From a virus: a DNA stretch of 64,000 bases. The translations under genes and the position numbers were made by a program. The notes beneath the pieces were generated by a model. It did not search any database, was not told the DNA's origin, and saw only the letters and a list, made by a program, of their open reading frames with translations. Positions 6,039 through 57,827 of the stretch are shown in pieces (position 1 is the first letter of the stretch; each line of letters begins with the position of its first letter). The stretch covers positions 1-64,000 of IMG/VR virus record IMGVR_UViG_3300046096_000411; one strand, written 5' to 3'.

Positions 6039-6060
6039 CCCGCCATTCTTGCGTCACGAC
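6039..6060 (-). promoter_or_regulatory. Late-promoter motif, leaderless (GTCGTGA cgca AGAAT ggcggg ATG)
   Basis: TCACGAC at 6054-6060, 15 nt before ATG at 6038. Confidence 0.8.
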
Positions 6061-6069
6061 GACAGCAGA

Positions 6070-6813
6070 TCAGCCGACGGGCGGGTCGGTGTTGGCCGGG
6101 CCACGCAGGATGCCGCTATGCACGTGCTCCAGGAAGCTGATGCCTTCAATCGTCACGTCGCCATCCACCACGACAGGGCCGGTGATATGGGTGCTCGGCG
6201 TATCGAGCGTGACGGACGGAGCCTTGATGGTAAGCGCCTCGGCGAACTCCAGCGCGCCACCCTTGGACACCGTCAAGCTGAGCGCGCCGTCGGGCGTCAG
6301 GCTCAAATCGAACGCTCCAGGCACGAACACGCGCACCCCGATATTGCGCCCGGTGTTGCGGTCAAGAGCGAGGTTCTTGTCCACGTTCTTACCGCCCAGG
6401 TCTTCGTGCTCCAGGCTTTCGGCAAACCGCACAAAGGCCCCGCTGGGGTGGTGCAGCTCCATGTTGCCGCTGGCATCCACGGTGGAGTAAACGTCGGACG
6501 TGTGGCGCGTGAAGGCGCGGTCCTGCTCCTTGAATGTCATCTGCGAAATTTGCGGGAACAGGTAGCCAACCACGACCGGGTTGTTTCTCACAAACCCGAC
6601 GAGCGCAATCTGGTCCTGCCCATTGCGCTTGGTGATGTCCCACTTGTCCGCACGCGCCGGCACGCTCGGCATATTGACCGAGCCCGAGCGGGCGCTGCCG
6701 TTTGGAGTGAGCACCTGCACACCGATCATGCGGGAGCCGTCGTCCATCATGACCAAATCGACGGAGTGATCCTCCGGGTGGACATCCACCACGATACCCT
6801 GACGCATACTCAT
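6070..6813 (-). CDS. Baseplate central spike (gpV/gp45-like)
   Basis: N-terminal OB-fold-like region; C-terminal beta repeats ending SFLEHVHSG (HxH metal-binding tip). Confidence 0.85.
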   Translation of the reverse strand: MSMRQGIVVDVHPEDHSVDLVMMDDGSRMIGVQVLTPNGSARSGSVNMPSVPARADKWDITKRNGQDQIALVGFVRNNPVVVGYLFPQISQMTFKEQDRAFTRHTSDVYSTVDASGNMELHHPSGAFVRFAESLEHEDLGGKNVDKNLALDRNTGRNIGVRVFVPGAFDLSLTPDGALSLTVSKGGALEFAEALTIKAPSVTLDTPSTHITGPVVVDGDVTIEGISFLEHVHSGILRGPANTDPPVG

Positions 6814-8366
6814 GGCAGCACCCCAAATCGGCTGGATTGCTCAACAAGCCACGGCGAGGACGACTGCCCCTCCATAGCCGTGCGCAACGCAAAACCCTCG
6901 CCGCGCTCGAATGTGAGCGTGGTCACGTAGCCTTGGTACGGGATGAACTCCTGGTCCACCTGGACGATGTAGGCGTCCCACACCATGCGCCCGACAACAA
7001 AGCGGGCGCAGTCGCCGGCCTTCAGCATTTCCGCGCTACCGGGGCGCATAAGCCCACCCTTGATGCGGGCTGTGCCGCGCTCCAGAACGACGTTGTCCCG
7101 GTTCATTTCCATCATGTGGCGGCGACGGCGCTCGATCCACGCCTCCTGCTTGACCGACCGCTCGTCGTGCTCCTTTTCAGGCTGCCCGCTTTGCTGGTTG
7201 GTGATTTCGTCCCCGGCCTGCTGCGTCTCGGCATACATGGGCCGCACGCCGTAATACTTCACGGCGGTGTTGGGGTATTCGCGGGTGGAAACAGTTTCGC
7301 TGTTTTCAGCGATGGCCGACAGCTTGCGCTGCATGTCATCAATCAGGTCAAAGCGGCTGTTGTTGACCCAGTAGAAGTTAGCCACCGCGGCATCGGTCCG
7401 CATCACGGACATGCTCACGATGTGCTCATCCAGCACCAGCACATAAATGGGGTCGGGCGCATCGTCCTGAATTTTGCGGTCGGTGGAGCCTTCCGGCGCC
7501 GTGAGGTGCAGAGCCGGGATGGCCCGGTACACGCAGTGCACGCCGTCCTCGCGGTCTTCCACGTACAGCTCGTTCCAGACGCCAACATCGCCGTGCAGGC
7601 GCATGATGTCCCAGAGCGAGCCCTGCATGGATTGAAACGACTGGTTCACCGACCCGTGCTTGACCGAGATGCTGTCGCCGGTCTGTATTTTTTTCGGAAT
7701 GTCCGAAGGCAGCGTGTCTGGCAGAAAGCCAGCCAGGTGCGGGTTGATGATCTTCTCGACCATCTGCCGAATGAACTCCCCAGCCGGCAGGGCCGCGACC
7801 ACGCTGACGCCAAAGAGCTCCGACAGGTTGAAGCTGGTGAGCAACGCCTTGCCTTCGACATAGGACGGCAGGTGCAGCACCTGGAACGTCTGCCAGATTT
7901 TCCCGTAGTCCTGCCCGGTGATGGTCACCTGCCGCTGCGGCGTGCCGTCTTGGCCCATGCTCTGACTGCGGTGCACCTCGGACACGAAGCCGCGCATGAC
8001 GATGGGGTACTTGCCGCCAAGCGGCGCAGGGCCGACCCCGCTCCACATGCGTATCTCGATCACGTCCATGGGCTCCACGAGGCCGTAGACGCTCTCCAGC
8101 GACTGGAAACCGGGAGGCGTGAAGTTCGACACCCAGTCCTTCTGAGCGGCATCCATGAAAGTGATGGACCAGCCACCGGCGGGCTCGCGCACCGACTTGC
8201 TCGTCCGCACGGATGAGCCGTCCCCAAGAAATGGGGACAGATCAATATAGGGGTCTTTTCCTTGGTACCGTGTGGATACGCCTGACTTGCCGTCAATCGT
8301 CCGGCGGTCAATGGTTTTGAAAAGCCATACCGCGCAGCGCGGGGTTGCATCTTGAAGCGTTGCCAT
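6810..8366 (-). CDS. Baseplate hub protein (gp27/gpD-like)
   Basis: MRGFVSEV...VTITGQDYGK motif; position between tape measure and spike. Confidence 0.75.
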   Translation of the reverse strand: MATLQDATPRCAVWLFKTIDRRTIDGKSGVSTRYQGKDPYIDLSPFLGDGSSVRTSKSVREPAGGWSITFMDAAQKDWVSNFTPPGFQSLESVYGLVEPMDVIEIRMWSGVGPAPLGGKYPIVMRGFVSEVHRSQSMGQDGTPQRQVTITGQDYGKIWQTFQVLHLPSYVEGKALLTSFNLSELFGVSVVAALPAGEFIRQMVEKIINPHLAGFLPDTLPSDIPKKIQTGDSISVKHGSVNQSFQSMQGSLWDIMRLHGDVGVWNELYVEDREDGVHCVYRAIPALHLTAPEGSTDRKIQDDAPDPIYVLVLDEHIVSMSVMRTDAAVANFYWVNNSRFDLIDDMQRKLSAIAENSETVSTREYPNTAVKYYGVRPMYAETQQAGDEITNQQSGQPEKEHDERSVKQEAWIERRRRHMMEMNRDNVVLERGTARIKGGLMRPGSAEMLKAGDCARFVVGRMVWDAYIVQVDQEFIPYQGYVTTLTFERGEGFALRTAMEGQSSSPWLVEQSSRFGVLP

Positions 8367-8371
8367 GGCCG

Positions 8372-14035: not shown

Positions 14036-14251
14036 TTAAACAGGCTTGTTGAGAAATGCGTCGAACCGAGATTTGAACTCGGACTCGGTGGCGCTCAGGC
14101 GTCCACCGGTGCGCTCGTGGTGCTCAAAGGAACCGATCAGCTCTGGACGCTTCACGGTCGCCGACAGGCGAGCACAAAACTCATTCAGATGCTGTGGAAG
14201 TTCCGGCGTCGCTGGCTCTGCCGACGCCACAGTGGTGGCTAACTTACTCAA
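14036..14251 (-). CDS. Small hypothetical virion-associated protein
   Basis: 71 aa, overlaps upstream stop, precedes sheath. Confidence 0.6.
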   Translation of the reverse strand: MSKLATTVASAEPATPELPQHLNEFCARLSATVKRPELIGSFEHHERTGGRLSATESEFKSRFDAFLNKPV

Positions 14252-15084
14252 TTGGCGCTCCTTAAAATTACTTCGTTGATGACGCTGTTCACTCGACCCG
14301 CAACGCGAACCGGGGCAAGGCAGGTGAACGTGCTCATCACCTGGTAGATGTGAGCGGGATACTCGCCGTTGACGGCATCAATGTCCTGCTGCGACAGGCC
14401 GCACTGCTGCCACCCCTCGTCAGCGAACACCGGCAGGTTTGCCACGACGATCCGTCGTATGGCCTTGCGAAGCTCCAGCCGCTCGTCGCTGTTCAAGCTC
14501 CAGCCGATCAGGGTCACGCTGACGTTTGCCAGCCACCCCTCGGACTCTGACCAATCGCCGCCAATCTCGTCGAACTGGTCGCCGATCATGTCCTCGCCAA
14601 CAAACCGCTCGCCGGGTTCCTCGTTTTCGAGGTGCACGGTCACGAGTGGCATGGCCAGGTCGCGCTCAAGCGACGGGGATGCGGTGTAAACCTGGATGTA
14701 ACCAAGCTCGGTGGCGAAGTTGCCGCGTTGGCACTCCACCAGGAGGCCGGACTCAATCCGTTGACGGAGCACCGACAGCACGTCGACGCTCATGTCCTCA
14801 TAGATAGCATCAGGCGTGCCGCTGGCCGTTGGTCCAGCCGTCCAGACCAAGCCATCGGACGTGTAGAACGGCCGATAGAAGGCCATCACCTGATTTTGCA
14901 GGAAGGCAGAGTCAACGATTACACGCTCGTCACCCTCATAGGCCACGACCGCCGATGCGTCGTCGTGGCTGGAAAATGTATTAGACCCCTTGCGAAGCAC
15001 CTTCCACCGGACGGCACCAGCTGGCGGCTCGATAAAGAGCCGCAGCGCATTGCCGACGTGGAGTGGTTGCACCATGGAGATCAC
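14248..15084 (-). CDS. Tail terminator / completion protein
   Basis: Position before sheath; PLVTVHLENE strand; GTG start lies 15 nt from GTCGTGA motif. Confidence 0.6.
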   Translation of the reverse strand: MISMVQPLHVGNALRLFIEPPAGAVRWKVLRKGSNTFSSHDDASAVVAYEGDERVIVDSAFLQNQVMAFYRPFYTSDGLVWTAGPTASGTPDAIYEDMSVDVLSVLRQRIESGLLVECQRGNFATELGYIQVYTASPSLERDLAMPLVTVHLENEEPGERFVGEDMIGDQFDEIGGDWSESEGWLANVSVTLIGWSLNSDERLELRKAIRRIVVANLPVFADEGWQQCGLSQQDIDAVNGEYPAHIYQVMSTFTCLAPVRVAGRVNSVINEVILRSAN

Positions 15085-15106
15085 GCCCGAATTTTTACAT
15101 CACGAC
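15085..15106 (-). promoter_or_regulatory. Late-promoter motif, leaderless (GTCGTGA tgta AAAAT tcgggc GTG)
   Basis: TCACGAC at 15100-15106. Confidence 0.8.
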
Positions 15107-15108
15107 CG

Positions 15109-15130
15109 GGCGTGACAACACAATCAAGAC
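15109..15130 (+). promoter_or_regulatory. Late-promoter motif variant, leaderless (GGCGTGA caac ACAAT caagac ATG)
   Basis: Back-to-back with the 15100-15106 copy; exact 15-nt spacing to ATG 15131. Confidence 0.75.
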
Positions 15131-17716: not shown

Positions 17717-17739
17717 GGCGGCAATCATTGCATCACGAC
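17717..17739 (-). promoter_or_regulatory. Late-promoter motif (GTCGTGA tgca ATGAT tgccgc), very short leader
   Basis: TCACGAC at 17733-17739 immediately after a terminator. Confidence 0.7.
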
Positions 17740-17740
17740 G

Positions 17741-17764
17741 AAAAAAAGCCGCCCGAAGGCGGCT
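17741..17764 (-). terminator. Rho-independent terminator
   Basis: AGCCGCC-TTCG-GGCGGCT followed by T-run on minus strand. Confidence 0.85.
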
Positions 17765-21290: not shown

Positions 21291-21312
21291 GAGCGAATTC
21301 TTGCGTCACGAC
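21291..21312 (-). promoter_or_regulatory. Late-promoter motif, leaderless (GTCGTGA cgca AGAAT tcgctc ATG)
   Basis: TCACGAC at 21306-21312; first 16 nt identical to the 6060 copy. Confidence 0.85.
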
Positions 21313-26351: not shown

Positions 26352-26373
26352 CGTCAGAGGATACGGTCACGAC
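26352..26373 (-). promoter_or_regulatory. Late-promoter motif, leaderless (GTCGTGA ccgt ATCCT ctgacg ATG)
   Basis: TCACGAC at 26367-26373. Confidence 0.8.
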
Positions 26374-26389: not shown

Positions 26390-26785
26390 ATGAGAGACTT
26401 CGCCGAAATTGTGTGTTCTTACGCGGCGCCACAACAAAAACAGGGGGCAAGGGTGGGGAATGACAAACGCGCTCGCATTGAGCGCGCAAAGACGTTTGCA
26501 AAATCGGACGAGGGAATAAATGCAAGTCTGTCGGAGATGGCCGACTGCGCCTGCATGAGCCGCTTTCACTTCGCCCGAGTCTTCCGCGACGTTACGGGCA
26601 AGACTCCCATGGAGTACGTGCTGGAACAAAAAATGGAGTGCGCCAAGCGAAAGCTGGCTGCCGGGCGTTGCAGCCTCGCAAACGTGGCGGCGTCGTGCGG
26701 ATTTTCAGACCAGTCCCACATGACGCGGGTGTTTCGGCGCGACCAAGGGGAAACCCCGGCGCAATTCAAGCGCCGCCAAGAATAG
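26390..26785 (+). CDS. Stand-alone AraC-family DNA-binding protein (MarA/SoxS-like); true start may be GTG 26453
   Basis: SLSEMADCACMSRFHFARVFR...TPMEY...LANVAASCGFSDQSHMTRVFRR...TPAQF double HTH. Confidence 0.9.
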   Translation: MRDFAEIVCSYAAPQQKQGARVGNDKRARIERAKTFAKSDEGINASLSEMADCACMSRFHFARVFRDVTGKTPMEYVLEQKMECAKRKLAAGRCSLANVAASCGFSDQSHMTRVFRRDQGETPAQFKRRQE

Positions 26786-27923: not shown

Positions 27924-27945
27924 TCGGGCAGTGTCGCGTCACGAC
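27924..27945 (-). promoter_or_regulatory. Late-promoter motif, leaderless (GTCGTGA cgcg ACACT gcccga ATG)
   Basis: TCACGAC at 27939-27945 directly after a terminator. Confidence 0.8.
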
Positions 27946-29577: not shown

Positions 29578-29580
29578 CGA

Positions 29581-37331: not shown

Positions 37332-37348
37332 GCCCCTGCCCTTATGGC

Positions 37349-38227: not shown

Positions 38228-38263
38228 AAGTGTTTCCAATTAGGGATGGGGACAAACCGCCTC

Positions 38264-38464: not shown

Positions 38465-38499
38465 GTAGTTCCCTTGTGGATGCCAAAAGCAGCGGTAAA

Positions 38500-41207: not shown

Positions 41208-41229
41208 GCGGGAAGTGTGCTGTCACGAC
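41208..41229 (-). promoter_or_regulatory. Late-promoter motif, leaderless (GTCGTGA cagc ACACT tcccgc ATG)
   Basis: TCACGAC at 41223-41229. Confidence 0.85.
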
Positions 41230-45985: not shown

Positions 45986-46008
45986 TTCCGACAGTATGCG
46001 GTCACGAC
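45986..46008 (-). promoter_or_regulatory. Late-promoter motif, leadered (GTCGTGA ccgc ATACT gtcgga A...GGAG...ATG)
   Basis: TCACGAC at 46002-46008 overlapping upstream stop codon; SD present downstream. Confidence 0.75.
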
Positions 46009-48475: not shown

Positions 48476-51400
48476 TCAGTTGGCAGAATAACGGCTTCGA
48501 TCACGTGGCTTGACGATTTGCCAAACCCGTCCGCATCGCCGTCCTTGCCTTTTACAGACAGGATCATAAGGCGAGTTCCAGGCGGGAGGATCATCTCATC
48601 CTCGCCGGAGTTTGAAGATAAAGCACCACCACCAGCAATCGAGTGGTACCCGACCCATAAACCCTTCACGCCGGGGCCCACGTGTAGCTTCAGGTGCACG
48701 TTTCCACCCCAAGAAGACGGACGGATTGACGTGGACATGATCGCTGGCTCCTGAAGAATTTTCCCCGAGGACTTCAGCAGCTGATCAAGGTCACTGCCGT
48801 GCAGCGAAATCTTGCGCGACAGGACCGTGCCCGGTGCAATATCATGCCCCAGTGTTTTCAAAGCCTCGCCGGCAGCCTTTGCCGCGCCAGTCGGGTTGCC
48901 GCTCCACAGCGAGCCATTCATGGCGTGATACGAGCTGCCAGTGTAGCTCTTCACCGCCTGCTTTTGCGTGGCGGGCATTTTTGCAATCGCGGCTTGGGCC
49001 TGCTTGGCATAGGTCTGGGCGGAAAGCGCGCCGCCACCCTCTGCGTGCTTGATTTTTTCCGGCAGACCCAAATCCGCCAGATTTACCGACCCGGGCTCGC
49101 CGAGCACAATAAACTTGCCGAGCTTTTGCGCGACAGCGCTGGAAGCAGGACCAGTAAACGCGGGGTACGCAGCATTCAGCGAGTGCAGCGGGTGGCCGCC
49201 GTCAAACCTGAACTTCTTGGGCGGGTTTAGCTGGTAGTTGATCTCGTTGATGGCCTGCTGGGCGTAGCCCTTCACGTGCTGGCTGGGGTGCTCCAGCACA
49301 GGCTTGTGGCCAACAACCTGCCCGGAATCCTTGTCATAAACCGGCGCGGTCAGGCCTTTGATGGCGTCCAAGTCGCCCGTCTTGGCGGCGGCGAAAACCG
49401 CCTGCACGGCTTCCTCGTTGGCTTTGTTGAGAAACTCCTTCGAGGAAGGGCCAGAGCTGCCGTTGCCGCCCCAGTTGAGAAAGGACGGCGGCGCGCTGAT
49501 GTCTTCGGGTTTGAAGACCGGGGCCTTCTTCTTCTTGACGGCGGCAGGAAACCGCTTCGCCAGGTCGGCCTTGCGGGCAATAAGCGTCTCGGCCAACTTC
49601 GTCTTGGCTGCGGCATCGCCGGGTCCGTACTGGTTGACCATGGCGCGAATGGCCACGTCGCTGATGGCTAGCACCTTTGCCGCGCTGGCGGTCAGGTCGG
49701 CCTTGGTCATGCCCTTGAAGACAGACGCGGCCTGCGGGTTTTTGCCCGCGTCCAGCAGGGTGTCGAGCTCGTCCACCTTGGAGCCAAAAGGCTTCTTCTC
49801 GCCTTGGGCGCGGTATTCGAGCGAACCACCAGCATCCACGCGGTGGGCCTTGCCGTCGGGGCCAACCTGCAGGTTGTCGTAGCCGAGGCCGACCACGTCC
49901 CAGTTGCCCAGCCATGCATCAACCGCGAAACCGGCCTGCGCGCCATCAACCTTGGCAAGCGCGCCAGGAGTGGCGGCCTTTTTGATGTCCACCCACTTGG
50001 AGGCAATGCCGACCTTGCCACCCTTAGTGACAAGCACGGCGTCTTGGCTGGACAAGCCCGCGAGGGCGTACAGCTTGGCCGCGAGCACTTCGGACTTGGC
50101 GGTGTCGGCGTCGGCGGGGAATTTGCAGTACCACTCCTGGCCGGCGGGGTCTTTGAACTTGCCGCCGGGGTTGGAGCCGCCCTGCCCGCCGGTTTGAGCC
50201 CATCCGTCCATGGGGAGCATGCCGCCGGCGGCGGTTGGGGGCACCTGAGCTGCGGGAGCGGCGGCGGTTACGGGGGAGGGCCCGGTGCCATCGCTCCACG
50301 CAGAGGTGTCCACTCCCATGGCCTGCGCCACGGCTTTGATGTGGCTGGCAGTTTTGGGGAAGCTCATCGCGTGAGCCTTGGTGTAGGCGTTAGCCATGCC
50401 CACGCCGTCGCCTTTCTTGGCTGCGGCTGTGGCCAGCTTGCCTGCCCCGTTGTTTGAAAACTTAGACTGGCCTGGGCTGATCGTCTGGATGGCGGTACTG
50501 ATGTCGATCAGGGTTGCCTTTTTGACCTTGGCCGGGGCGGCAGGCTTGTAAGTCGGGTCGAGCTTTTTCAGCGCGGCATCTGGCGGGATGGGGTATCCCA
50601 TCGCCTTCATCTGGGGGAGAATTTCGGCGAGCGTTTCGCCCGGAATGGTGTCGGGCTCGGCGAACGAGTCATCCGTCACGCCAAATTCAAACCCGTCATC
50701 GCCGCCTCCGGCGAGGTAATAACCTTTCCCGTCTTTCTCAAATTCCAGCGATGGGCTGCCATCGAGGCCGGGATTGGATGCCGAGTGGGTCCACCCACCC
50801 ATGCCGTCATCCTGCTTGACCCAGTGCCCATTTTTGAACACCAGCATGCCGTCGGCGCCAGGCTTTGTGTCGCCTTCCTTGGGGCCGGGCTCCACGGCGG
50901 CTGGGGCTTCGTACTCGTGCTGAGCGGTACCGGAATAGTTGTAGCCCTTGGCCTTCTTCTCCCCCATGAGCTTGACGGCGGCATTTTTTGCGGCCTGCTC
51001 GGATGGAAATACCTTCTCGGTGACCTGCCCCTTGGTGCCGATTTTCCCGTAGTGCGTCTTCATCACGGAGCCGAGCGTCGACACCGACCAGAACTTGCTG
51101 TGGCCGGGCTCCTTGTTTTCGTAGAGCGGGGCGTCGATTTTTAGTTTTTGCGCGGGGGTTGCAGGCGCAGCTGGGGCGGGCGCAGGGGAAGCCCGCTGAG
51201 GCTTCGTCCCAGCCAGCGCATGCCCCTGCAGCTCTTGCGCTTTCTGCTGAGCCGCCTCCAAAGCGTCATCGTAGTCTTCGTCCGTTTGCTTTTCTGCCGG
51301 CATACTCTCGTTCACGGCATCCATGAAGTATTCCATGGCGGCGTCCGGGTCGTGGTCCGTCAGCGCCTCGTAGGCATCGGCCTGCGCCTTGGTGGGGACT

Positions 51401-52782
51401 TTCCCAGCGGAGATTGCGGCCTTCCACTCGCTGACGACGGGGTATGGGTCGGCGGCTGGCGCGGGGGGTGTAGCAGTCTGCATCCCGATTGCCGCAGCAT
51501 GGTGCGACAGGTCGTGCGACGCCAGTGCATCGTGCATTTCAGGCTCGCCGCCAGGATTTGCTGCCAGCCAGTCCTGAGCCGCGAGCTTGGCGGCGATAAC
51601 CTTGTCGTAGGGTGACGACATTTTGTGCGCAGCCAGCGTGTGCGCGAGGTGGTCGTAGGCAGGCTTACCTTGGAGCGCAACCGGCGCAGGCTCCACAGGC
51701 ACAGCCGCGGTCGCGCCATCCACACCCAGGCCGGCCAGCGCGGTCTGCGCGGTGAGAGCCTGCTTCTTGGCGTAGGTCTGCTTGGCGTCGGCCTTCGAGT
51801 TGATAAAGGCCTGCAGCCCGGCGGTGTCGCCAGCGAAGGCCATGGCCTCGATCTTCGCCATGGCGGCGTTGTGGCTCTTGGCGTTGGTGTTCTCGGGGGG
51901 CAGCTTCAGCTTGAACCATGGGATGGATTGCAGGTTCTGCAGCTGCTGGGCTGAGAGCGCACCAGAGGCGGGCGGGGCCGATGCCGGAATCTCGGCTTCG
52001 GGAGCGGCGGGCGCGGCGGCCTGCGGAGCTGCCTGCTTTTTGGCCGTGCCCTTGGCAACAGCCTCGGCCAGCGTAGCGGCGGGGATAGTCGCGGAGTTTG
52101 TCTGGTTCGGCACCTTCGCGCCGACCTTGTGCATGTAGACATGCTGGCCGTCGGGGCTGGTGTTGTAGACCACCCACTTGCCGGCGTTCATCTTCTCGTA
52201 CTGGCTGGAGAACTCGAAGACGGTGCCGGTTGCTACAGTTTCGGCAGATGCCGGAGTAATCGCGGCGGGCTCGGGCTCCTTCGGCGCCAGGTGCTCAGGC
52301 AACCCAGTCGGATGCGGGTCGGCGGGCTCAGCCACCTGGGCGGCGGCGTGGGTACCGGGTTTCTGGCCCGGGGTGACGGTGTGCGTAGAGCCGTGCAGGC
52401 CCAACAAGTGGTTGGCGATTTTCGCCAGCTTCGCGCCGTAGGTGTTCGTGCCAAAACCCGCACCAACGATGGCCGTCACATCGCCCGCATCGGACCACGC
52501 GCGCAGCTTTTCCAGCGCCTTATTGAAAACGGGCGCGTTCACATTGGAGTCCGGCAGCTTCAGCGCGGACCATTGGTCGTCGGTAAAGTGCGCGGCGGCC
52601 TCGTGGTGCCCAGCGGATTTGGGGTGCGCAGCGACAGGTGCGCCCTTGGGGGCTGGTGCGTCTTGGGTGATCTTTCGCCACCGGGGAGGGTTGCCGTAAA
52701 GAGCGTACCCACCCTTATGGGCAATCGAGGTGCCGGTGCCGGGTCCGGATTTCAGCAGCAGGATGAGACGCGGTGTGTTCAT
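48472..52782 (-). CDS. Polyvalent protein: WGR domain + HipA/PI3-PI4-kinase-like domain + R-S-E ADP-ribosyltransferase
   Basis: WGR: HSKFWSV..HYGKIGTKGQ..EKKAKGY; kinase: GSNPGG..WYCK..SEVLAAKLY..LGNWD..DN..VDAG; ART: YTGSSYHAMNGSL..LSR..MSTS..EDEMILP. Confidence 0.88.
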   Translation of the reverse strand: MNTPRLILLLKSGPGTGTSIAHKGGYALYGNPPRWRKITQDAPAPKGAPVAAHPKSAGHHEAAAHFTDDQWSALKLPDSNVNAPVFNKALEKLRAWSDAGDVTAIVGAGFGTNTYGAKLAKIANHLLGLHGSTHTVTPGQKPGTHAAAQVAEPADPHPTGLPEHLAPKEPEPAAITPASAETVATGTVFEFSSQYEKMNAGKWVVYNTSPDGQHVYMHKVGAKVPNQTNSATIPAATLAEAVAKGTAKKQAAPQAAAPAAPEAEIPASAPPASGALSAQQLQNLQSIPWFKLKLPPENTNAKSHNAAMAKIEAMAFAGDTAGLQAFINSKADAKQTYAKKQALTAQTALAGLGVDGATAAVPVEPAPVALQGKPAYDHLAHTLAAHKMSSPYDKVIAAKLAAQDWLAANPGGEPEMHDALASHDLSHHAAAIGMQTATPPAPAADPYPVVSEWKAAISAGKVPTKAQADAYEALTDHDPDAAMEYFMDAVNESMPAEKQTDEDYDDALEAAQQKAQELQGHALAGTKPQRASPAPAPAAPATPAQKLKIDAPLYENKEPGHSKFWSVSTLGSVMKTHYGKIGTKGQVTEKVFPSEQAAKNAAVKLMGEKKAKGYNYSGTAQHEYEAPAAVEPGPKEGDTKPGADGMLVFKNGHWVKQDDGMGGWTHSASNPGLDGSPSLEFEKDGKGYYLAGGGDDGFEFGVTDDSFAEPDTIPGETLAEILPQMKAMGYPIPPDAALKKLDPTYKPAAPAKVKKATLIDISTAIQTISPGQSKFSNNGAGKLATAAAKKGDGVGMANAYTKAHAMSFPKTASHIKAVAQAMGVDTSAWSDGTGPSPVTAAAPAAQVPPTAAGGMLPMDGWAQTGGQGGSNPGGKFKDPAGQEWYCKFPADADTAKSEVLAAKLYALAGLSSQDAVLVTKGGKVGIASKWVDIKKAATPGALAKVDGAQAGFAVDAWLGNWDVVGLGYDNLQVGPDGKAHRVDAGGSLEYRAQGEKKPFGSKVDELDTLLDAGKNPQAASVFKGMTKADLTASAAKVLAISDVAIRAMVNQYGPGDAAAKTKLAETLIARKADLAKRFPAAVKKKKAPVFKPEDISAPPSFLNWGGNGSSGPSSKEFLNKANEEAVQAVFAAAKTGDLDAIKGLTAPVYDKDSGQVVGHKPVLEHPSQHVKGYAQQAINEINYQLNPPKKFRFDGGHPLHSLNAAYPAFTGPASSAVAQKLGKFIVLGEPGSVNLADLGLPEKIKHAEGGGALSAQTYAKQAQAAIAKMPATQKQAVKSYTGSSYHAMNGSLWSGNPTGAAKAAGEALKTLGHDIAPGTVLSRKISLHGSDLDQLLKSSGKILQEPAIMSTSIRPSSWGGNVHLKLHVGPGVKGLWVGYHSIAGGGALSSNSGEDEMILPPGTRLMILSVKGKDGDADGFGKSSSHVIEAVILPTE

Positions 52783-52804
52783 CCGCGCATTTTGAAGTCA
52801 CGAC
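52783..52804 (-). promoter_or_regulatory. Late-promoter motif, leaderless (GTCGTGA cttc AAAAT gcgcgg ATG)
   Basis: TCACGAC at 52798-52804. Confidence 0.85.
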
Positions 52805-53326: not shown

Positions 53327-53707
53327 TCAGACAACGCTCCCAGCGGCCAGCTTGCTGCGAAGCTCGTAGCCCATGAGGGGCCACACCTTGTTGATGGCGT
53401 TGGCGCGGGCAATCTTGCGGCCCACCTCGGCGTCGAAGTTTTCCGGGCTGGCGCAGGCGCTTTCACCAGTGACGGTGAAGCCGTTACGCAGCATCAGCAC
53501 ACAAAACGTCAGCAATCCGAGTGAGGACGGGATAGCGTTAAGTTCTTCGTCGCCTGAACCCTTCGGCAGAGTGGCAACAACTCCAGCCGCTGCGGTGAAA
53601 TAGTGCTCGCTGACGATGTTCGCCTCGATGTCCGCAGGCGTCACGCGCGGGGCGGTCAACCCCTTAGCGACAATCTCGGCCTCAATGGCCTGATCGGCCG
53701 CGCTCAC
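53327..53707 (-). CDS. Phage gp49/gp66-family protein (candidate nucleotide-signal sponge)
   Basis: APRVTPADIEANI..LTFCVLMLRNGFTVTGESACASPENFDAEVGRKIA..KVWPLMGYEL family signature; GTGA-coupled start. Confidence 0.85.
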   Translation of the reverse strand: MSAADQAIEAEIVAKGLTAPRVTPADIEANIVSEHYFTAAAGVVATLPKGSGDEELNAIPSSLGLLTFCVLMLRNGFTVTGESACASPENFDAEVGRKIARANAINKVWPLMGYELRSKLAAGSVV

Positions 53708-54087
53708 TGCACCACCTCGGGCGCCTTCACCATGCCAATCGACTCGCGGGCCTTGAGCACCTTGTCGGCGTCGGCCAGGCGGTTGATCATGTCCACAGCG
53801 GCAGGGTCGCCAGCAGCAGCGGCGGCCTCGACGGACTTGGACGCGCCAACCGTGTCGAACACGAATGTGCACTTGTGCTGGGTGCCGCCAACGGGGAAGC
53901 TGGTGCCATCCCACACGACGAGCAGGTCTTCGACGTGCTGCTCAGCGGCGGCAGACACGCCCATCAGCACCAGAGGCGGCAGGTCGGAGACGAACTCGCC
54001 GTCGCCCTTGTGAATGAAAAGCATGTTGCCGCCGGTGGGGCTGGCGACGACAAGGACGGCGTCCTTGGGAAGTGAAAACGAAAACAT
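53704..54087 (-). CDS. Hypothetical protein
   Basis: AGGAG SD before MFSFSLPK. Confidence 0.7.
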   Translation of the reverse strand: MFSFSLPKDAVLVVASPTGGNMLFIHKGDGEFVSDLPPLVLMGVSAAAEQHVEDLLVVWDGTSFPVGGTQHKCTFVFDTVGASKSVEAAAAAGDPAAVDMINRLADADKVLKARESIGMVKAPEVVQ

Positions 54088-54109: not shown

Positions 54110-54132
54110 GAGATCAACCGTCTTCTCACGAC
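54110..54132 (-). promoter_or_regulatory. Late-promoter motif, leadered (GTCGTGA gaag ACGGT tgatct...AGGAG...ATG)
   Basis: TCACGAC at 54126-54132. Confidence 0.65.
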
Positions 54133-54213: not shown

Positions 54214-55017
54214 GTGACTGCAAATAATTCTACAGTAAAAACATTTTACACCTACGCGCACTACCGCGCGGACCAGCCGGAGCGCGGTCCGTTCTACATC
54301 GGCAAGGGCACGGGGCCACGGGCGTGGAAAACATCAGGCACGGGCAGATCAAAGTGGTGGCAGCGCATCGTTGCAAAGCACGGGCTCAAGGTCGAAATAC
54401 TGGCTCCATGGCCAACGGAGGACGACGCATACAGCCACGAGCGGCTGATGATTGAGTGCTTCCGCGACCTCGGTGATCTGGTGAACCTGACATCCGGCGG
54501 CGACGGCCTACGCGACCCAGACGGGTCCATTCGGGCGCGCATCGGAAGCAAAATCCGGCGTCACTGGGAAGACCCAGCAAGGCGCGCGCATTGGCTGGCC
54601 CAACGCAGCACACCCGAGGTTGTTGCGAAAAAGAGCAAGGCGCTGCGCGAGGCATTCGCCGCGCCTGGCAGCAAGGAGAAGCGCAGCGCGGCGGTAAAGG
54701 CATCGCACTCCAGGCCAGAAGTCCGGGAGCGCATCCTGAAGAACGCGGCAGACCCTGGATACCGCGCCAAGCTCAGCGCTGGCGTGAAGGCGGCCCTCGC
54801 AAGACCGGAGGCCAAAAGCCGAAAGTCGGCAGCCAGCAAGGCCATGTGGAAAGACGAGAAGCACCGCGAGCGATTCGCGGACCTGATGCGCCAGAAGGCC
54901 GAGGAACGGTGGGCAACGCTGCCGCCCGAAAAAGCCGCCAAGCTACGCCATGCGGCGGAGCTGGACCGCGCTCGCAAGGAGCGCAAGCGGTCAGAAAACG
55001 TCAACAGGATCGACTGA
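54214..55017 (+). CDS. GIY-YIG-type homing endonuclease with basic helical repeats
   Basis: FYTYAH..PFYIGKG..R..E..LVNLTSGGDG; antisense to neighbours. Confidence 0.85.
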   Translation: MTANNSTVKTFYTYAHYRADQPERGPFYIGKGTGPRAWKTSGTGRSKWWQRIVAKHGLKVEILAPWPTEDDAYSHERLMIECFRDLGDLVNLTSGGDGLRDPDGSIRARIGSKIRRHWEDPARRAHWLAQRSTPEVVAKKSKALREAFAAPGSKEKRSAAVKASHSRPEVRERILKNAADPGYRAKLSAGVKAALARPEAKSRKSAASKAMWKDEKHRERFADLMRQKAEERWATLPPEKAAKLRHAAELDRARKERKRSENVNRID

Positions 55018-56469
55018 TTGATTGGCGGCGATCTCGGCGCCCGCCTCGGACCCGATCCGCTGCTCACCATCGCGCGGGAACGTCTCGCGCGTCACCGCGT
55101 GCACAGCATGGACGCCCGTGAACATCTCCAACCGGCGCACGATGACATCGACGTACTTGGGGTCCAGCTCCATGAGGCGCGCGCGCATGCCGGCCTGGTG
55201 GGCGGCAACAGCGGTGGAGCCAGAGCCACCAAAGGCATCCAGAACCACGTCGCCGGGTCGCGCAGAGTTGCGGAGCTGGCGCAGCACCAGATTGGTCGGC
55301 TTCATGGTCGGGTGAAGATCGGACTTTGACGGGCGTGGCTCCTGGATCACGGAGCTTGGAGCGGACTCGACCGTGGCGTCACCGGACACGATGAACACCT
55401 CGTCGCCGATTACCACCTTCCAGCGCCCATCCTCCATTTTCTGGAACGGGCTACCCGAACCCATCTCGGAGAACGTCGTCTGCTTGCGACCGCCGTACCA
55501 ACGATGCGCAGCGCCCGGTTTCCAGCCGTAGAGCGCCGGCTCAGAAATTGGCTGATGATCCCAGCGCGACAGCACGAGCGAGTTCTTCTTCCACGACAAC
55601 ACGCTCTGGAGCTTAAAGCCCGCATCACGGAAAGCCGTCCTGAAGTTGATCCCTTCGCTGTCCGCATGGAAAACGTAGATGGCCGAGCCGGGCTTCATCT
55701 GGTCAAACACGGCGCGGTACATGGCCAGCAGGAAGTTGTAGAAATCCTTGTCACCCATCGAGTCATTCAGGATCGCGCCGGTCTTGTTTTTCCGGCCTTG
55801 GGACTTGGCGATCTGGTCGTTTTTCCCGCCGATATCAACGTTATAGGGCGGATCGGTCCAGACCACATCGGCCAGCTCGCCAGCCATAAGCACGTCCCAA
55901 TCCTTCGGCTCAAGCGACGAGCCGCACATGACGCGGTGCCCGGCGACCTCCCACACGTCACCCAGGCGCGAGTGCGGCACCACAGGAACATCCGGCACGG
56001 CATCGGGGTCGCCCCCGGCACCAGACGCATCAGGATCGACCATGCCCTCGAACAGCTTGGCCAGGTCTTCCTCGGCAAAGCCGGTGTACAGCTCGAGGTC
56101 GTAGCCAGCGGCACGCAGGTCGTCGGTTTCGAGTTTCAGAACGTCCAAGTCCCACGTGGCCATCTCGGCCAGGCGGTTGTCGGAGATCACCAGCGCGCGG
56201 CGCTCGTCGTCGGCGAGGTGGGACAGGTCGATGCCGGGTACGCGGGACAGGCCCAGCTTTTTCGCGGCCATGATTCGGCCGTGACCGGCAAGGATGCCGC
56301 CATCAGCCACCAAGATGGGGGTGGTCCAGCCGACGCGCTGGATGGTGCCAGCGAGCGCCTCGATTTGAGCCGGGCTGTGCTTGCGGGAATTTCGAGCGTA
56401 AGGCAGCAGCGCCTCGACCTCGAACATGCGAATCTCAGACGGCATCCGCACGCCTTCATCGGCCGCCAT
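54991..56469 (-). CDS. ParB-like domain + N6-adenine/N4-cytosine DNA methyltransferase
   Basis: PYARNSRKH..GWTTPIL..AGHGR..DNRLAE (ParB/Srx); TDPPYN, HPTMKP, VLDAFGGSGST. Confidence 0.95.
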   Translation of the reverse strand: MAADEGVRMPSEIRMFEVEALLPYARNSRKHSPAQIEALAGTIQRVGWTTPILVADGGILAGHGRIMAAKKLGLSRVPGIDLSHLADDERRALVISDNRLAEMATWDLDVLKLETDDLRAAGYDLELYTGFAEEDLAKLFEGMVDPDASGAGGDPDAVPDVPVVPHSRLGDVWEVAGHRVMCGSSLEPKDWDVLMAGELADVVWTDPPYNVDIGGKNDQIAKSQGRKNKTGAILNDSMGDKDFYNFLLAMYRAVFDQMKPGSAIYVFHADSEGINFRTAFRDAGFKLQSVLSWKKNSLVLSRWDHQPISEPALYGWKPGAAHRWYGGRKQTTFSEMGSGSPFQKMEDGRWKVVIGDEVFIVSGDATVESAPSSVIQEPRPSKSDLHPTMKPTNLVLRQLRNSARPGDVVLDAFGGSGSTAVAAHQAGMRARLMELDPKYVDVIVRRLEMFTGVHAVHAVTRETFPRDGEQRIGSEAGAEIAANQSVDPVDVF

Positions 56470-57074
56470 CAGAACTCACCGCCGTCGTCGGTACTGGGGG
56501 CAACGGCGGGCGCAGCAGCACCACGCTCGACCACCACGACGGTCTGGCCGTCACCGGCGCGCGCGTCGTGGTTGATGCCATACGCACGGCACTCGCCGAC
56601 CTGCACCAGCGTCAGGGTCTCGGCGGTGATCTTCGCCAGCTTGGCGCGTTCGAAGCCGCCAGCGATGTCGCCCTTACCCGCCTGCTGCAGAGCCTCGTAG
56701 GCGACCTTTCGCGGAGCCGCCCATTCCTTGCGGTGGCGGTCCAGCACATCGGCGCGGACATCGGCGGCGAACTCCTGCGCAACTTCGCGCGAGGCCTCGG
56801 CGGCGGCGACTTCATCGGAGAGAGGTTTTCCTAATTCGGACATGCGAACCTTAAATTTATTGGCAAGCTCGCCAGCGCGAGCGGAAAGCCCGGCAGCAGC
56901 CCGGGTAGCGACGACCCACTTGCCCTCGGACTTCCACGAGCGCACCAGCTTCTGGTCCACGCCCACAGCGGCCGCAACGGTGTCGACGGTTGCGCCAGGC
57001 TGGCCCTCGAACAGAGCGCGGGCTGAGGCACGACGGGCGGCCATGTCCTCGACAAGTTTCTTTTTTACGGTCAT
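56469..57074 (-). CDS. Candidate terminase small subunit (N-terminal HTH)
   Basis: TVDTVAAAVGVDQKLVRSWKSEGKW HTH then helices; adjacent to ParB-MTase as commonly seen near packaging genes; late promoter. Confidence 0.55.
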   Translation of the reverse strand: MTVKKKLVEDMAARRASARALFEGQPGATVDTVAAAVGVDQKLVRSWKSEGKWVVATRAAAGLSARAGELANKFKVRMSELGKPLSDEVAAAEASREVAQEFAADVRADVLDRHRKEWAAPRKVAYEALQQAGKGDIAGGFERAKLAKITAETLTLVQVGECRAYGINHDARAGDGQTVVVVERGAAAPAVAPSTDDGGEF

Positions 57075-57096
57075 GGGCGAATCCTGCCATCACGAC
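57075..57096 (-). promoter_or_regulatory. Late-promoter motif, leaderless (GTCGTGA tggc AGGAT tcgccc ATG)
   Basis: TCACGAC at 57090-57096. Confidence 0.8.
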
Positions 57097-57257
57097 CGGA
57101 CGGGCCCGCGTCGCGCCCTTGGGGCAGGCAGAGTGAGCGAAACCCACGCCCAGCAAGGCCGGGCGGGCACAGGCTCGGTGACTTGCAATCATTTCGACCG
57201 CGAGCGGCCAACAAAAAGGCCCAGCGGTGGGGCTGGGCCAGTGAGGGAGGAACAACG

Positions 57258-57539
57258 TCAGCGAGCAGAGCGACACCATCGCCAAGTGCCCCGACTGCGC
57301 CAAAGCCAGCGGACGCCCCACAAGGCAGCGTCCAGCAGCAGGAGCGCAACGACCCCACCGGAAATGAGCAACGGGCCCGCCAGCAGCGCAAACAGCCACG
57401 GGCCCTCGATGATGATTAGGTAGGCCAGCAGCGACAGCCACAGCGTGACGGCGTACAGGCAGGCAATCAGGACGTGCACCAGAGCGACTCCATCGGCGGC
57501 AACGGCCAAGGGTAGGGCGGCGTGCGGGAGCTGGCTCAT
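57258..57539 (-). CDS. Small multi-TM membrane protein
   Basis: Two to three hydrophobic segments, basic C-terminus. Confidence 0.5.
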   Translation of the reverse strand: MSQLPHAALPLAVAADGVALVHVLIACLYAVTLWLSLLAYLIIIEGPWLFALLAGPLLISGGVVALLLLDAALWGVRWLWRSRGTWRWCRSAR

Positions 57540-57570
57540 GGGAAGGCGGGAAAAGCCGTGACGGGCCGGG

Positions 57571-57804
57571 TCAACGCAGGGCCTCGCGCCAGCGGATGGG
57601 CCAGAGCACGGCGTACTCGAACGCCACGACGAGTAGCGAGACGGAAGCCACCATGGCAGCAACCCAGAGCGGCAGGCCGGAGCGACGCGCCGCGTGAACG
57701 ACGTGGTCGATTGATCGTTGGTGGCACAGCATCCGCGCCAAGGAGATACCCGACACGGAGCAGCCGGTAGCGACGTAGGCGAGAAGGAGGTCGGAGGCGG
57801 TCAT
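57571..57804 (-). CDS. Small two-TM membrane protein
   Basis: Two hydrophobic segments; preceded by GGCGTGA promoter variant. Confidence 0.55.
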   Translation of the reverse strand: MTASDLLLAYVATGCSVSGISLARMLCHQRSIDHVVHAARRSGLPLWVAAMVASVSLLVVAFEYAVLWPIRWREALR

Positions 57805-57827
57805 GAGGCGGATTGTGACATCACGCC
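57805..57827 (-). promoter_or_regulatory. Late-promoter motif variant (GGCGTGA tgtc ACAAT ccgcctc ATG)
   Basis: TCACGCC at 57821-57827, 16 nt to ATG. Confidence 0.6.

What the first reader, a model, noticed from the sequence alone, without database searches (positions are those of the whole stretch)
6039..57827. A leaderless late regulon: G(T/G)CGTGA-N4-A-N3-T-N6 promoters that place +1 on the start codon
Seen: 14 gene-proximal copies fit the pattern, 13 on the minus strand (motif 5' ends at 6060, 15106, 17739, 21312, 26373, 27945, 41229, 45248, 46008, 52804, 54132, 57096, 57827) and one on the plus strand (15109). Every copy has A five nt and T nine nt after the heptamer. In 11 of 14 the ATG/GTG follows 14-16 nt after it (exactly 15 nt in nine) with no SD. 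The two clearly leadered copies (46008, 54132) have GGAG/AGGAG SDs, and 17739 predicts a leader of about 3-4 nt. Known: A(-11) and T(-7) are the near-invariant bases of sigma70-family -10 elements, and +1 lies about 7 nt after T(-7). Inference: GTCGTGA at -22..-16 is read by a phage activator or sigma factor, and the first gene of most late operons (terL, portal, protease, MuF, helicase, ART) is translated from leaderless mRNA. That could let late genes escape a block on SD-led host translation, possibly one imposed by the phage ART/kinase. This last link is speculative.
Basis: partly seen in the sequence, partly recalled or inferred. Interest (0 to 1): 0.92.

Follow-up and report, generated by a model that had tools for sequence, protein, structure and literature searches.

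The report
Phage promoter class making leaderless mRNAs
A 16-base signal (GTCGTGA, four bases, A, three bases, T) in front of the packaging, head, tail and effector operons of this 93-kb freshwater phage is very probably a phage-specific promoter without a -35 box. In about two thirds of its copies it should start the mRNA on the ATG itself, and the same signal runs through a whole clade of phages of Proteobacteria.

Summary
The window holds 14 copies of G(T/G)CGTGA-N4-A-N3-T against 0.77 expected, and the whole 93,362-bp phage genome holds 18. All 14 window copies lie in gaps between genes and point at the next gene. The start codon is 14-16 nt after the heptamer in 11 of 14.

The signal is conserved with the same geometry in eight published relatives that infect Aeromonas, Pseudomonas, Bordetella, Escherichia, Yersinia and Enterobacter, and in about 20 metagenomic contigs. 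In seven complete genomes, 80 of 130 heptamers carry the A/T at exactly this spacing.

Start-codon distances fall into two groups: 14-16 nt (37 sites) or 27 nt and more (33 sites, often with a Shine-Dalgarno). Only 5 sites lie between. That pattern fits a transcription start about 15 nt after the heptamer. There is no -35 signal.

Leaderless copies are common in the Pseudomonas, Bordetella, Aeromonas and freshwater phages (35 of 64) and rare in the E. coli and Yersinia phages (2 of 16).

The factor that reads the heptamer is not identified. No sigma factor, P1 Lpa, Ogr or Mor homologue was found. The idea that leaderless mRNAs escape a block on Shine-Dalgarno-led translation is not supported.

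No RNA data exist. This scan has already noted the motif in at least six other genomes of the clade.

The parts
6045..6060 (-). Promoter copy GTCGTGA-CGCA-A-GAA-T. ATG 6038 lies 15 nt after the heptamer. The gene is 4851-6038 (395 aa, tail tube initiator/baseplate).
   Evidence: (PF23980)
15091..15106 (-). Promoter copy. GTG 15084 lies 15 nt after the heptamer. The gene is 14248-15084 (278 aa; its ST4 homologue is annotated as head-to-tail adaptor). This is the left half of a back-to-back divergent pair.
15109..15124 (+). Promoter copy with the variant heptamer GGCGTGA. ATG 15131 lies 15 nt after it. The gene is 15131-16003 (290 aa, phrog_16819, function unknown). This is the right half of the divergent pair, and the two copies fill the whole 46-bp gap.
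17724..17739 (-). Promoter copy directly after a terminator hairpin (17747-17764). ATG 17713 lies 19 nt after the heptamer, which predicts a leader of about 4 nt. The gene is 16634-17713 (359 aa).
21297..21312 (-). Promoter copy. ATG 21290 lies 15 nt after the heptamer. The gene is 20382-21290 (302 aa; its ST4 homologue is annotated as capsid maturation protease).
26358..26373 (-). Promoter copy. ATG 26351 lies 15 nt after the heptamer. The gene is 21801-26351 (1516 aa, SNF2/DEAD helicase).
27930..27945 (-). Promoter copy directly after a terminator hairpin (27952-27972). ATG 27923 lies 15 nt after the heptamer. The gene is 26766-27923 (385 aa, conserved, function unknown).
41214..41229 (-). 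Promoter copy. ATG 41207 lies 15 nt after the heptamer. The gene is the portal, 39504-41207.
   Evidence: PF04860
45233..45248 (-). Promoter copy. ATG 45227 lies 14 nt after the heptamer. The gene is the large terminase, 42606-45227.
   Evidence: (PF05876)
45993..46008 (-). Promoter copy with a leader. ATG 45971 lies 30 nt after the heptamer and is preceded by GGAG. The gene is 45270-45971 (233 aa, function unknown).
52789..52804 (-). Promoter copy. ATG 52782 lies 15 nt after the heptamer. The gene is 48472-52782 (1436 aa, WGR domain plus ADP-ribosyltransferase).
54117..54132 (-). Promoter copy with a leader. ATG 54087 lies 38 nt after the heptamer and is preceded by AGGAG. The gene is 53704-54087 (127 aa).
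57081..57096 (-). Promoter copy. ATG 57074 lies 15 nt after the heptamer. The gene is 56469-57074 (201 aa), followed by the ParB-N6/N4 methylase gene 54991-56469.
57812..57827 (-). Promoter copy with the variant heptamer GGCGTGA. ATG 57804 lies 16 nt after it. The ORF is 57571-57804 (77 aa; whether it is a real gene is uncertain).
60324..60899 (-). Candidate trans factor 'Zn175', unproven. It is a conserved protein of about 175 aa with invariant C39 C51 C71 C74 H80 C97 C100 C113 C116. It is the first gene of the leftward early operon. It matches no Pfam or PHROG family and no solved fold.
59935..60327 (-). Candidate trans factor 'Zn130', unproven. It is a conserved zinc-ribbon protein (invariant C39 C42 C61 C64 C77 C79 C96) and its gene overlaps the end of Zn175.
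26390..26785 (+). AraC-family regulator with two helix-turn-helix units, only 131 aa, antisense to the flanking late genes. It is not the universal reader of the heptamer, because the E. coli and Yersinia relatives lack it but keep the motif.

Best explanation
GTCGTGA-N4-A-N3-T is the promoter of the middle/late transcription units of this temperate myophage and its clade. Three steps make up the model.

1. The -10 part. The second half of the motif (consensus c-A-n-a-A/C-T, often with G at -14) is taken to act as a -10 element, and its A(-11) and T(-7) are read by the sigma-2 domain of the host primary sigma factor. This step is inferred.

2. The heptamer. It sits at -22..-16 at a rigid distance from the -10 part. 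It replaces the missing -35 box and is read by a phage-encoded specificity factor, either an activator or a sigma-like or sigma-remodelling protein, that has not been identified. This step is inferred. The candidates are two conserved early zinc proteins (Zn175 and Zn130) and a 75-aa helix-turn-helix protein.

3. The start site. Transcription then starts about 7 nt after T(-7). In roughly half the copies across the clade, and in 10 of the 15 GTCGTGA copies of this genome, that base is the A of the ATG. The first cistron (terminase, portal, protease, adaptor, baseplate hub, helicase, ART protein) would then be translated from a leaderless mRNA. Downstream cistrons use ordinary Shine-Dalgarno sites.

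The sequence and comparative data show the motif, its position, its conservation and its geometry.
For: Enrichment:
- The window holds 14 copies against 0.77 expected, and the genome holds 18.

Conservation:
- ST4 has 10 copies.
- Touem01 has 14, Dolphis 13, PHB04 12, fHe-Yen8-01 7 and ECML-606-1 9. Nearly all lie on the gene strand, and the reversed-pattern control gives 0.
- phiT5282EW has 10 and Jeremy 12.
- 22 IMG/VR loci give 60 of 132 sites with a long-ORF start exactly 15 nt after the heptamer.
- The terminase promoter is conserved at orthologous positions.

Geometry:
- 80 of 130 heptamers in seven genomes have the A/T at N4. The other offsets give 0-14, most of them 0-4.
- There is no information at -37..-30. 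Position -14 is G in 64%, -8 is A or C, and +1 is A in 58%.
- Start distances are 14-16 nt in 37 sites, 17-26 nt in 5 and 27 nt or more in 33. Of those 33, 17 carry a Shine-Dalgarno-like 4-mer, against a 12% background.

Context:
- Back-to-back divergent copies fill the 46-bp gap at 15085-15130 and are conserved in six relatives.
- Terminators lie directly upstream at 17747-17764 and 27952-27972, and canonical sigma-70 promoters are not enriched in 14-30 kb of the late region.

Start codons:
- 35 of 37 leaderless starts are ATG, and protein conservation begins at Met1.

Host pattern:
- The same promoters carry leaders with Shine-Dalgarno sequences in the E. coli and Yersinia phages. Leaderless copies are 2 of 16 there against 35 of 64 elsewhere.
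Against: - No transcription start has been mapped, and no RNA run holding this phage was listed.
- No reader protein is identified. No Sigma70_r2, Sigma70_r4_2, Ogr_Delta or Mor domain and no P1 Lpa homologue was found in the genome.
- The zinc-protein candidates have no known fold or family.
- Morganella phage Mecenats66 keeps homologues of those candidates but has no strict copy of the motif. Conservation therefore does not tie them to the heptamer.
- T at -12, an important base for sigma-70, is present in only 8 of 78 sites.
- The host contrast rests on one enteric lineage, so it is not phylogenetically independent.
Confidence: 0.72

Rival explanations
1. A very divergent phage-encoded sigma factor, undetectable by Pfam, reads the heptamer and the -10-like part as one extended element. 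T4 gp55 reads TATAAATA in this way. Under this rival the host primary sigma factor plays no part.
For: - The heptamer-to-A/T spacing is rigid, which suits a single reader.
- T(-12) is missing and -12 is mostly C.
- The heptamer is identical across hosts of two proteobacterial classes.
- Zn175, at about 175 aa, has the size of a small sigma factor.
Against: - No Sigma70_r2 or Sigma70_r4_2 match was found in six-frame searches.
- The Zn175 model (pLDDT 87) is a mixed alpha/beta zinc protein. No solved chain aligned to it with Z of 3 or more.
- A(-11) and T(-7) are the signature of group 1-3 sigma factors, which the host already supplies.
Confidence: 0.15
2. The host sigma-70 holoenzyme reads the motif by itself as an unusual extended -10 promoter. 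No phage factor is needed, and timing is set by repression or by genome copy number.
For: - Bases -15/-14 are TG in about a third of sites and G(-14) is present in 64%.
- A(-11), A(-9), A/C(-8) and T(-7) resemble TATAAT.
- No activator has been identified.
Against: - These phages carry integrases and appear temperate. More than 15 constitutive promoters in front of lysis and virion genes would be lethal in a lysogen unless each were repressed.
- There is no -35 and mostly no T(-12), so activity with sigma-70 alone should be weak.
- An invariant 7-bp element at -22..-16 is not a known contact of sigma-70 holoenzyme.
Confidence: 0.08
3. The motif acts at the RNA level. It would be a translation-initiation signal or a processing signal in read-through transcripts, for example the site of an endoribonuclease that trims the mRNA to the AUG. 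It would not be a promoter.
For: - The motif keeps a fixed distance to the start codon in half of the copies.
- Start-associated sequences are known in some mycobacteriophages (from my own knowledge; not checked here).
Against: - 33 of 80 copies lie 27-66 nt from the start and have their own Shine-Dalgarno.
- The back-to-back divergent pair cannot both be fed by upstream transcripts.
- Terminators sit directly upstream of some copies.
- The conserved A and T have exactly the -11/-7 spacing of a -10 element.
Confidence: 0.03
4. The heptamer is an operator for a repressor, in the way P1 C1 operators are scattered over the genome, and it overlaps weak -10-only promoters.
For: - It is a dispersed, asymmetric, strictly conserved short site at many transcription units of a temperate phage.
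- One copy lies upstream of the early Zn175 operon in this genome.
Against: - Without a -35 or another positive element these promoters would hardly fire even when derepressed.
- The copy upstream of Zn175 is not conserved in relatives.
- The strict phasing with the -10 part is typical of an element that recruits polymerase.
Confidence: 0.02

Closest known systems
Late promoters of coliphage P1, activated by Lpa (gp10)
   Same: - Both have a -10 hexamer of the form nAnnnT and no -35.
- Both have a conserved phage-specific element abutting the -10 at a fixed short distance. The P1 GenBank record calls it the '-22 region': AAGTnACTT, then 4 nt, then the hexamer.
- Both occur in about a dozen copies scattered in front of the morphogenesis, packaging and lysis operons of a temperate myophage of about 93 kb. 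PMC10695390 reports 11 P1 late promoters with a 9-bp inverted repeat as the Lpa site.
   Different: - The sequence and symmetry differ: an asymmetric GTCGTGA against the 9-bp inverted repeat AAGTnACTT.
- The register differs: -22..-16 here against -25..-17 in P1.
- tblastn finds no Lpa homologue here or in ST4 (best E 1.5).
- The two P1 late promoters read here have leaders. At LPpac the -10 ends 35 nt before the pacA start.
- Here about half the copies put +1 on the ATG.
Leaderless genes with a -10 element directly upstream of the ORF (Deinococcus-Thermus, actinobacteria; lambda cI from PRM; Thermus phage phiYS40 middle/late genes)
   Same: A -10 element lies about 6-7 nt upstream of the ATG, with no Shine-Dalgarno, and the start codon is AUG. 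PMC12340547 describes this as a common mode of expression in Deinococcus-Thermus. The phiYS40 and lambda cI cases come from my own knowledge, and the phiYS40 paper could not be opened here.
   Different: - The hosts here are Beta- and Gammaproteobacteria, where leaderless mRNAs are rare and poorly translated (established for E. coli).
- The -10 is coupled to a phage-specific upstream heptamer.
- Only first cistrons are leaderless.
- The enteric members of the clade have mostly replaced the leaderless layout with leaders carrying Shine-Dalgarno sequences.
Phage T4 middle (MotA/AsiA) and late (gp55/gp33/gp45) promoters
   Same: Phage-specific promoter classes that keep a -10-like element, dispense with the host -35 and depend on phage proteins that redirect host RNA polymerase (from my own knowledge).
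   Different: - The T4 MotA box lies at -30 and the T4 late element is TATAAATA at -10.
- Neither resembles GTCGTGA at -22..-16.
- No sigma domain was detected here.
- T4 mRNAs have leaders.

Membership tests
Sigma-70-type promoter (-35/-10) | A at -11 and T at -7 of a -10 hexamer | tested here: met
   80 of 130 GTCGTGA heptamers in seven genomes have A and T at exactly this spacing. Other offsets are near background. Positions -9 (A) and -8 (A/C) are also biased.
Sigma-70-type promoter (-35/-10) | A TTGACA-like -35 hexamer 16-18 bp upstream of the -10 | tested here: not met
   Information content is 0.1 bit or less at every position from -50 to -25 over 78 sites.
Sigma-70-type promoter (-35/-10) | T at -12, or a TG extended -10 at -15/-14 | tested here: inconclusive
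   T(-12) is present in 8 of 78 sites, with C in 42. G(-14) is present in 50 of 78 and T(-15) in 28 of 78.
P1 Lpa-dependent late promoters | A conserved element next to a -10 hexamer at a fixed distance, with no -35 | tested here: met
   Searches give this for the present motif. Searches give it for P1.
P1 Lpa-dependent late promoters | The 9-bp inverted repeat AAGTnACTT as the upstream element | tested here: not met
   The element here is the asymmetric GTCGTGA, and its register is shifted by about 3-4 bp.
P1 Lpa-dependent late promoters | An Lpa (gp10) homologue encoded by the phage | tested here: not met
   tblastn of P1 Lpa against this genome and ST4 gives a best E of 1.5. Sequence search only, so a fold-level relative is not excluded.
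P1 Lpa-dependent late promoters | Dependence on the host protein SspA | not testable with these tools
   This needs genetics or in vitro transcription.
Leaderless mRNA | The transcription start coincides with the A of the start codon | not testable with these tools
   No RNA run holding this phage was listed. The start is predicted only from geometry: T(-7), six bases, then ATG in 28 of 80 sites, and within one base of that in 37 of 80.
Leaderless mRNA | An AUG start, no room for a Shine-Dalgarno, and a start codon that is the true N-terminus | tested here: met
   35 of 37 starts are ATG. The ATG is the first possible in-frame start. Orthologue conservation begins at residue 1-3.
Phage-encoded sigma factor | Sigma-70 region 2 or region 4 domains in a phage protein | tested here: not met
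   Six-frame searches with PF04542 and PF08281 give no match at E of 10 or less, while the control genomes gave matches. A very divergent sigma factor is not excluded.
P2 Ogr/Delta and Mu Mor/C late activators | An Ogr_Delta zinc finger or a Mor domain | tested here: not met
   PF04606 and PF08765 give no match at E of 10 or less.

The most novel reading that the evidence does not exclude
The clade uses a new kind of RNA-polymerase specificity factor: the conserved early zinc proteins Zn175 and Zn130, which match no known family or fold. This factor would read GTCGTGA at -22..-16, stand in for -35 recognition and place +1 on the ATG. The leaderless layout would be adaptive, keeping low-copy first cistrons (terminase, portal, protease, adaptor) weakly translated next to Shine-Dalgarno-led capsid, sheath and tube genes. 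It would be tolerated in Pseudomonas, Bordetella and Aeromonas hosts and selected against in Enterobacterales.
Probability: 0.2. Interest if true: 0.75.

Novelty: new variant of a known kind. Interest (0 to 1): 0.6.

Why it matters
- The motif gives a one-line rule for finding the middle/late transcription units in a widespread but little-studied clade of about 90-kb temperate myophages. It also corrects start codons there. For example, the ST4 portal is annotated 90 nt downstream of the conserved leaderless ATG.
- It points to a phage transcription factor that has not yet been identified.
- It offers a natural experiment on leaderless translation in Proteobacteria. The same promoters are leaderless in Pseudomonas, Bordetella and Aeromonas phages and have leaders in E. 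coli and Yersinia phages.
- Cultured members on E. coli, P. putida and other laboratory hosts make all of this testable.

Tried and rejected
RNA evidence

Known regulators sought and not found
- Sigma70_r2 and Sigma70_r4_2 gave no match.
- P1 Lpa gave nothing by tblastn.
- Ogr_Delta and Mor gave no match.
- T7-type RNA polymerase PF00940 gave no match, but the control genomes gave none either, so this is uninformative.

AraC-type protein
It was rejected as a universal factor because fHe-Yen8-01 and ECML-606-1 lack any HTH_18 gene yet keep the motif.

Zn175 and Zn130
- They match no Pfam or PHROG family.
- Foldseek against the PDB found nothing at E of 0.001 or less.
- VIA-align gave a best Z of 2.8 for Zn175. 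For Zn130 it gave Z 4.1-4.8 to generic zinc ribbons of Elf1, TFIIS and Rpb9, which is a lead only.
- PDB profile searches gave only chance-level hits.
- The ESM Atlas returned only unnamed viral clusters.
- Homologues occur only on contigs of this clade. Co-occurrence therefore cannot discriminate, and the motif-less Mecenats66 keeps homologues.

Other checks
- The heptamer upstream of the Zn175 gene in this genome is not conserved in relatives, so it is not general autoregulation.
- A k-mer search for a replacement motif in Mecenats66 found none.
- A TGGCAC resemblance to the sigma-54 -24 box was rejected, because there is no -12 element and the register is wrong.
- The literature search for the heptamer returned only primer noise.
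- The papers on Mecenats66 and Touem01 do not mention promoters.
- The P1 genome paper, the Lehnherr 1991 paper and the phiYS40 paper could not be opened.

Full report
**What the window is.** It is the first 64 kb of a 93,362-bp viral contig (61.6% G+C, rated complete by CheckV) assembled from freshwater metagenomes.
- Its terminase, portal, sheath, tube and baseplate genes place it in a clade of myophages of about 86-96 kb.
- Published members are Aeromonas ST4, Pseudomonas Touem01, Dolphis and Jeremy, Bordetella PHB04, Yersinia fHe-Yen8-01, Escherichia ECML-606-1, Enterobacter phiT5282EW and, more distantly, Morganella Mecenats66.
- The phage carries an integrase, as ST4 does, and Touem01 is predicted to be temperate.

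- The pattern G(T/G)CGTGA-N4-A-N3-T occurs 14 times in the window at exactly the listed places, against 0.77 expected from dinucleotide shuffles. It occurs 18 times in the genome.
The start is at 15 nt in nine copies, and at 14 and 16 nt in one copy each. Two copies have leaders with GGAG or AGGAG, and one predicts a leader of about 4 nt.
- All 14 window copies lie in gaps between genes and face the next gene.
- Of the 24 GTCGTGA heptamers on the gene strand of the whole genome, 15 carry the A/T. None of the 9 on the other strand does.

**It is conserved, which makes it more than a curiosity of one genome.**
- ST4 shares only about 70-74% DNA identity in the conserved genes, yet it has 10 copies, all on the gene strand. 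ATG follows 15 nt after the heptamer at the terminase, portal and adaptor genes.
- Touem01, Dolphis, PHB04, fHe-Yen8-01 and ECML-606-1 have 14, 13, 12, 7 and 9 copies. The reversed-pattern control gives none. phiT5282EW has 10 and Jeremy 12.
- In ST4, this genome and 22 IMG/VR loci around the terminase gene, 60 of 132 sites have a long-ORF start exactly 15 nt after the heptamer, and 75 have it within 14-16 nt.
- The terminase promoter sits at the orthologous place in most of these loci.
- The heptamer is the same in genomes of 47% and 65% G+C and in phages of Beta- and Gammaproteobacteria.

**Anatomy, from seven complete genomes.**
- Of 130 GTCGTGA heptamers, 80 have A and T at exactly N4 and N8. 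Other offsets stay near background.
- A count matrix over 78 sites shows no information from -50 to -25, so there is no -35 box.
- Beyond the imposed bases it shows C/T at -15, G at -14 (64%), C at -12 (T in only 8), A at -9, A or C at -8, and A at +1 (58%).
- The distance to the first long-ORF start falls into two groups: 14-16 nt in 37 sites, 17-26 nt in 5, and 27 nt or more in 33. Of those 33, 17 have a Shine-Dalgarno-like 4-mer at the right place, against a 12% background.
- This is what a fixed transcription start about 15 nt after the heptamer predicts. Either the ATG is the 5' end, or the leader is long enough to hold a ribosome-binding site.
- 35 of the 37 leaderless starts are ATG. 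Orthologous proteins are conserved from residue 1-3, for example M-I-S/T-M-V-Q/L-P for the adaptor and M-T-D-x-A-L-E-V-A for the portal.

**Why it is a promoter and not an RNA signal.**
- The gap 15085-15130 consists of nothing but two back-to-back copies (TCACGAC-CG-GGCGTGA), each 15 nt from its own start codon. This divergent pair is conserved in six relatives. Neither copy can be supplied by read-through.
- Good terminator hairpins end 7-8 nt before the copies at 17739 and 27945. Canonical sigma-70 promoters are not enriched in the stretch of the late region that was scanned, 14-30 kb.
- The leadered copies vary in distance to the ATG but not in internal geometry.

**Host dependence.**
- Leaderless copies by genome: 10 of 15 here, 5 of 10 in ST4, 7 of 14 in Touem01, 6 of 13 in Dolphis and 7 of 12 in PHB04. 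In ECML-606-1 they are 1 of 9 and in fHe-Yen8-01 1 of 7. Fisher's test gives p = 0.004, but the two enteric phages are one lineage.
- At orthologous promoters (portal, protease, baseplate hub, the 290-aa gene) the enteric phages keep the promoter and add a leader with GGAGG-type sites.
- At their protease promoter an ATG-TTT-TGA mini-ORF still sits exactly 15 nt after the heptamer.
- This fits the known poor translation of leaderless mRNAs in E. coli. It is also independent support for the predicted +1.

**Who reads the heptamer is unresolved.**
- An identical heptamer across distant hosts, a temperate lifestyle and the lack of a -35 all argue for a phage-encoded factor.
- None of the usual kinds is detectable. 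There are no sigma domains, no P1 Lpa, and no Ogr/Delta or Mor domain.
- An AraC-type protein is encoded at 26390-26785. The two enteric members lack it but keep the motif.
- The small non-structural proteins shared by all seven motif-bearing genomes are two adjacent early zinc proteins and a 75-aa helix-turn-helix protein.
  - Zn175 is at 60324-60899 with nine invariant Cys/His. Zn130 is at 59935-60327.
  - The two zinc-protein genes head the leftward early operon, beside an iteron and AT-rich region with sigma-70-like promoters.
- Zn175 folds confidently (pLDDT 87) but matches nothing solved.
- Zn130 is a zinc ribbon with only weak likeness to the Elf1, TFIIS and Rpb9 ribbons (Z 4.1-4.8).
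- Their homologues occur only in this clade.
- Mecenats66 keeps diverged homologues of all three but has no strict motif copy and no obvious replacement. These proteins are therefore candidates, not findings.

- Only first cistrons are leaderless. The major capsid, sheath, tube and most other late genes have AAGGA/GGAG sites. A block on Shine-Dalgarno-led translation would stop virion production.
- The enteric relatives keep the ART protein but use leaders.
- A simpler inference is that leaderless first cistrons are low-copy proteins whose weak translation is tolerated or useful. This is untested.

**Comparison with known systems.**
- The nearest architecture is the P1 late promoter. The P1 GenBank record annotates a '-22 region' (AAGTnACTT), 4 nt, then a -10 hexamer, with no -35. 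PMC10695390 reports 11 such promoters activated by Lpa.
- The present element differs in sequence, symmetry and register, and has no Lpa homologue.
- The two P1 late promoters read here have leaders.
- Leaderless genes with a -10 next to the ORF are common in Deinococcus-Thermus (PMC12340547). They are known for lambda cI and Thermus phage phiYS40 (from my own knowledge). They are not known as the rule for the first cistrons of phages of Proteobacteria.
- I therefore class this as a new variant of a known kind.

**Earlier notes from this scan.** The scan has already flagged the same motif in at least six other genomes of this clade and in a second window of this genome. Two follow-up reports also named P1 Lpa promoters as the closest known system. 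I checked that comparison and the zinc-protein lead myself.

Noticed in passing
window 15085-15130: The whole 46-bp gap between two divergent genes is made of two back-to-back promoter copies, each placing +1 on its own start codon. The pair is conserved in six relatives. The right-hand copy always uses a variant heptamer (GGCGTGA, ATCGTGA or GTAGTGA).
   Followed up: yes
window 26390-26785 (+): A 131-aa AraC-family protein (HTH_18, E 8e-24), about the size of MarA or SoxS, is encoded antisense between two late genes. Its start lies 17 nt beyond the helicase promoter's heptamer. Relatives have forms of 300-350 aa. The E. coli and Yersinia phages have none.
   Followed up: partly
window 28948-39504 (-): Six ORFs (209, 453, 530, 511, 1021 and 334 aa) form a block of about 10 kb between the portal gene and the 385-aa gene. 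None has a Pfam hit. Five of the six have no homologue in the eight relatives compared; the 334-aa ORF has partial ones in PHB04 and Mecenats66. None has a heptamer promoter of its own. The block ends in a strong terminator (28540-28576).
   Followed up: partly
window about 60950-61150, and the same place in ST4, Dolphis, PHB04, ECML-606-1 and fHe-Yen8-01: Upstream of the Zn175 operon lie (TA)n and trinucleotide runs plus short direct repeats (CGTTAC here, GGTAGC in ST4, GGTAACC in Dolphis, GTTCCAG in fHe-Yen8-01). This looks like an origin or an immunity-type iteron region whose repeat unit differs in each phage.
   Followed up: no
ECML-606-1 near 34491 (-) and fHe-Yen8-01 near 3726 (+): At the protease promoter of both enteric phages a two-codon ORF, ATG-TTT-TGA, sits exactly 15 nt after the heptamer. 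It is followed by AAGGG and then the real ATG. It may be a relic of the leaderless start or a site where ribosomes load.
   Followed up: no
Mecenats66 (L085-L089): This syntenic relative (terminase 39% identical) has no strict motif copy. Remnants remain at the protease gene (GTCGTGA with altered spacing) and at the adaptor gene (ATCGTGA-N4-A-N3-T with a leader of about 10 nt). It keeps diverged Zn175, Zn130 and 75-aa helix-turn-helix homologues.
   Followed up: partly
L003-L005 (IMG/VR, terminase 93-98% identical to the window): In the closest relatives the terminase gene has no heptamer. A hairpin is followed by TATCAT, six bases and then ATG. The leaderless -10 geometry is therefore kept without the phage-specific element.
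   Followed up: no
genome 83847-84125 (+), outside the window (L052:5847-6125): A 92-aa DksA-like zinc-finger protein (phrog_54, E 1e-7) lies just after the integrase gene. Proteins of this type act on RNA polymerase. It is absent from the two enteric phages. A GGCGTGA motif copy at 83839 overlaps its start.
   Followed up: no
ST4 record OR261032, portal gene: The annotated portal start (70060) is 90 nt downstream of the conserved leaderless ATG (70150), which follows the heptamer by 15 nt. Gene callers that require a Shine-Dalgarno probably truncate first cistrons throughout this clade.
   Followed up: partly
window 60948-60954 (-): A GTCGTGA heptamer lies upstream of the Zn175 gene but 12 nt from a CATAAT hexamer, which is not the usual geometry. 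It is present in the closest IMG/VR relatives only.
   Followed up: partly
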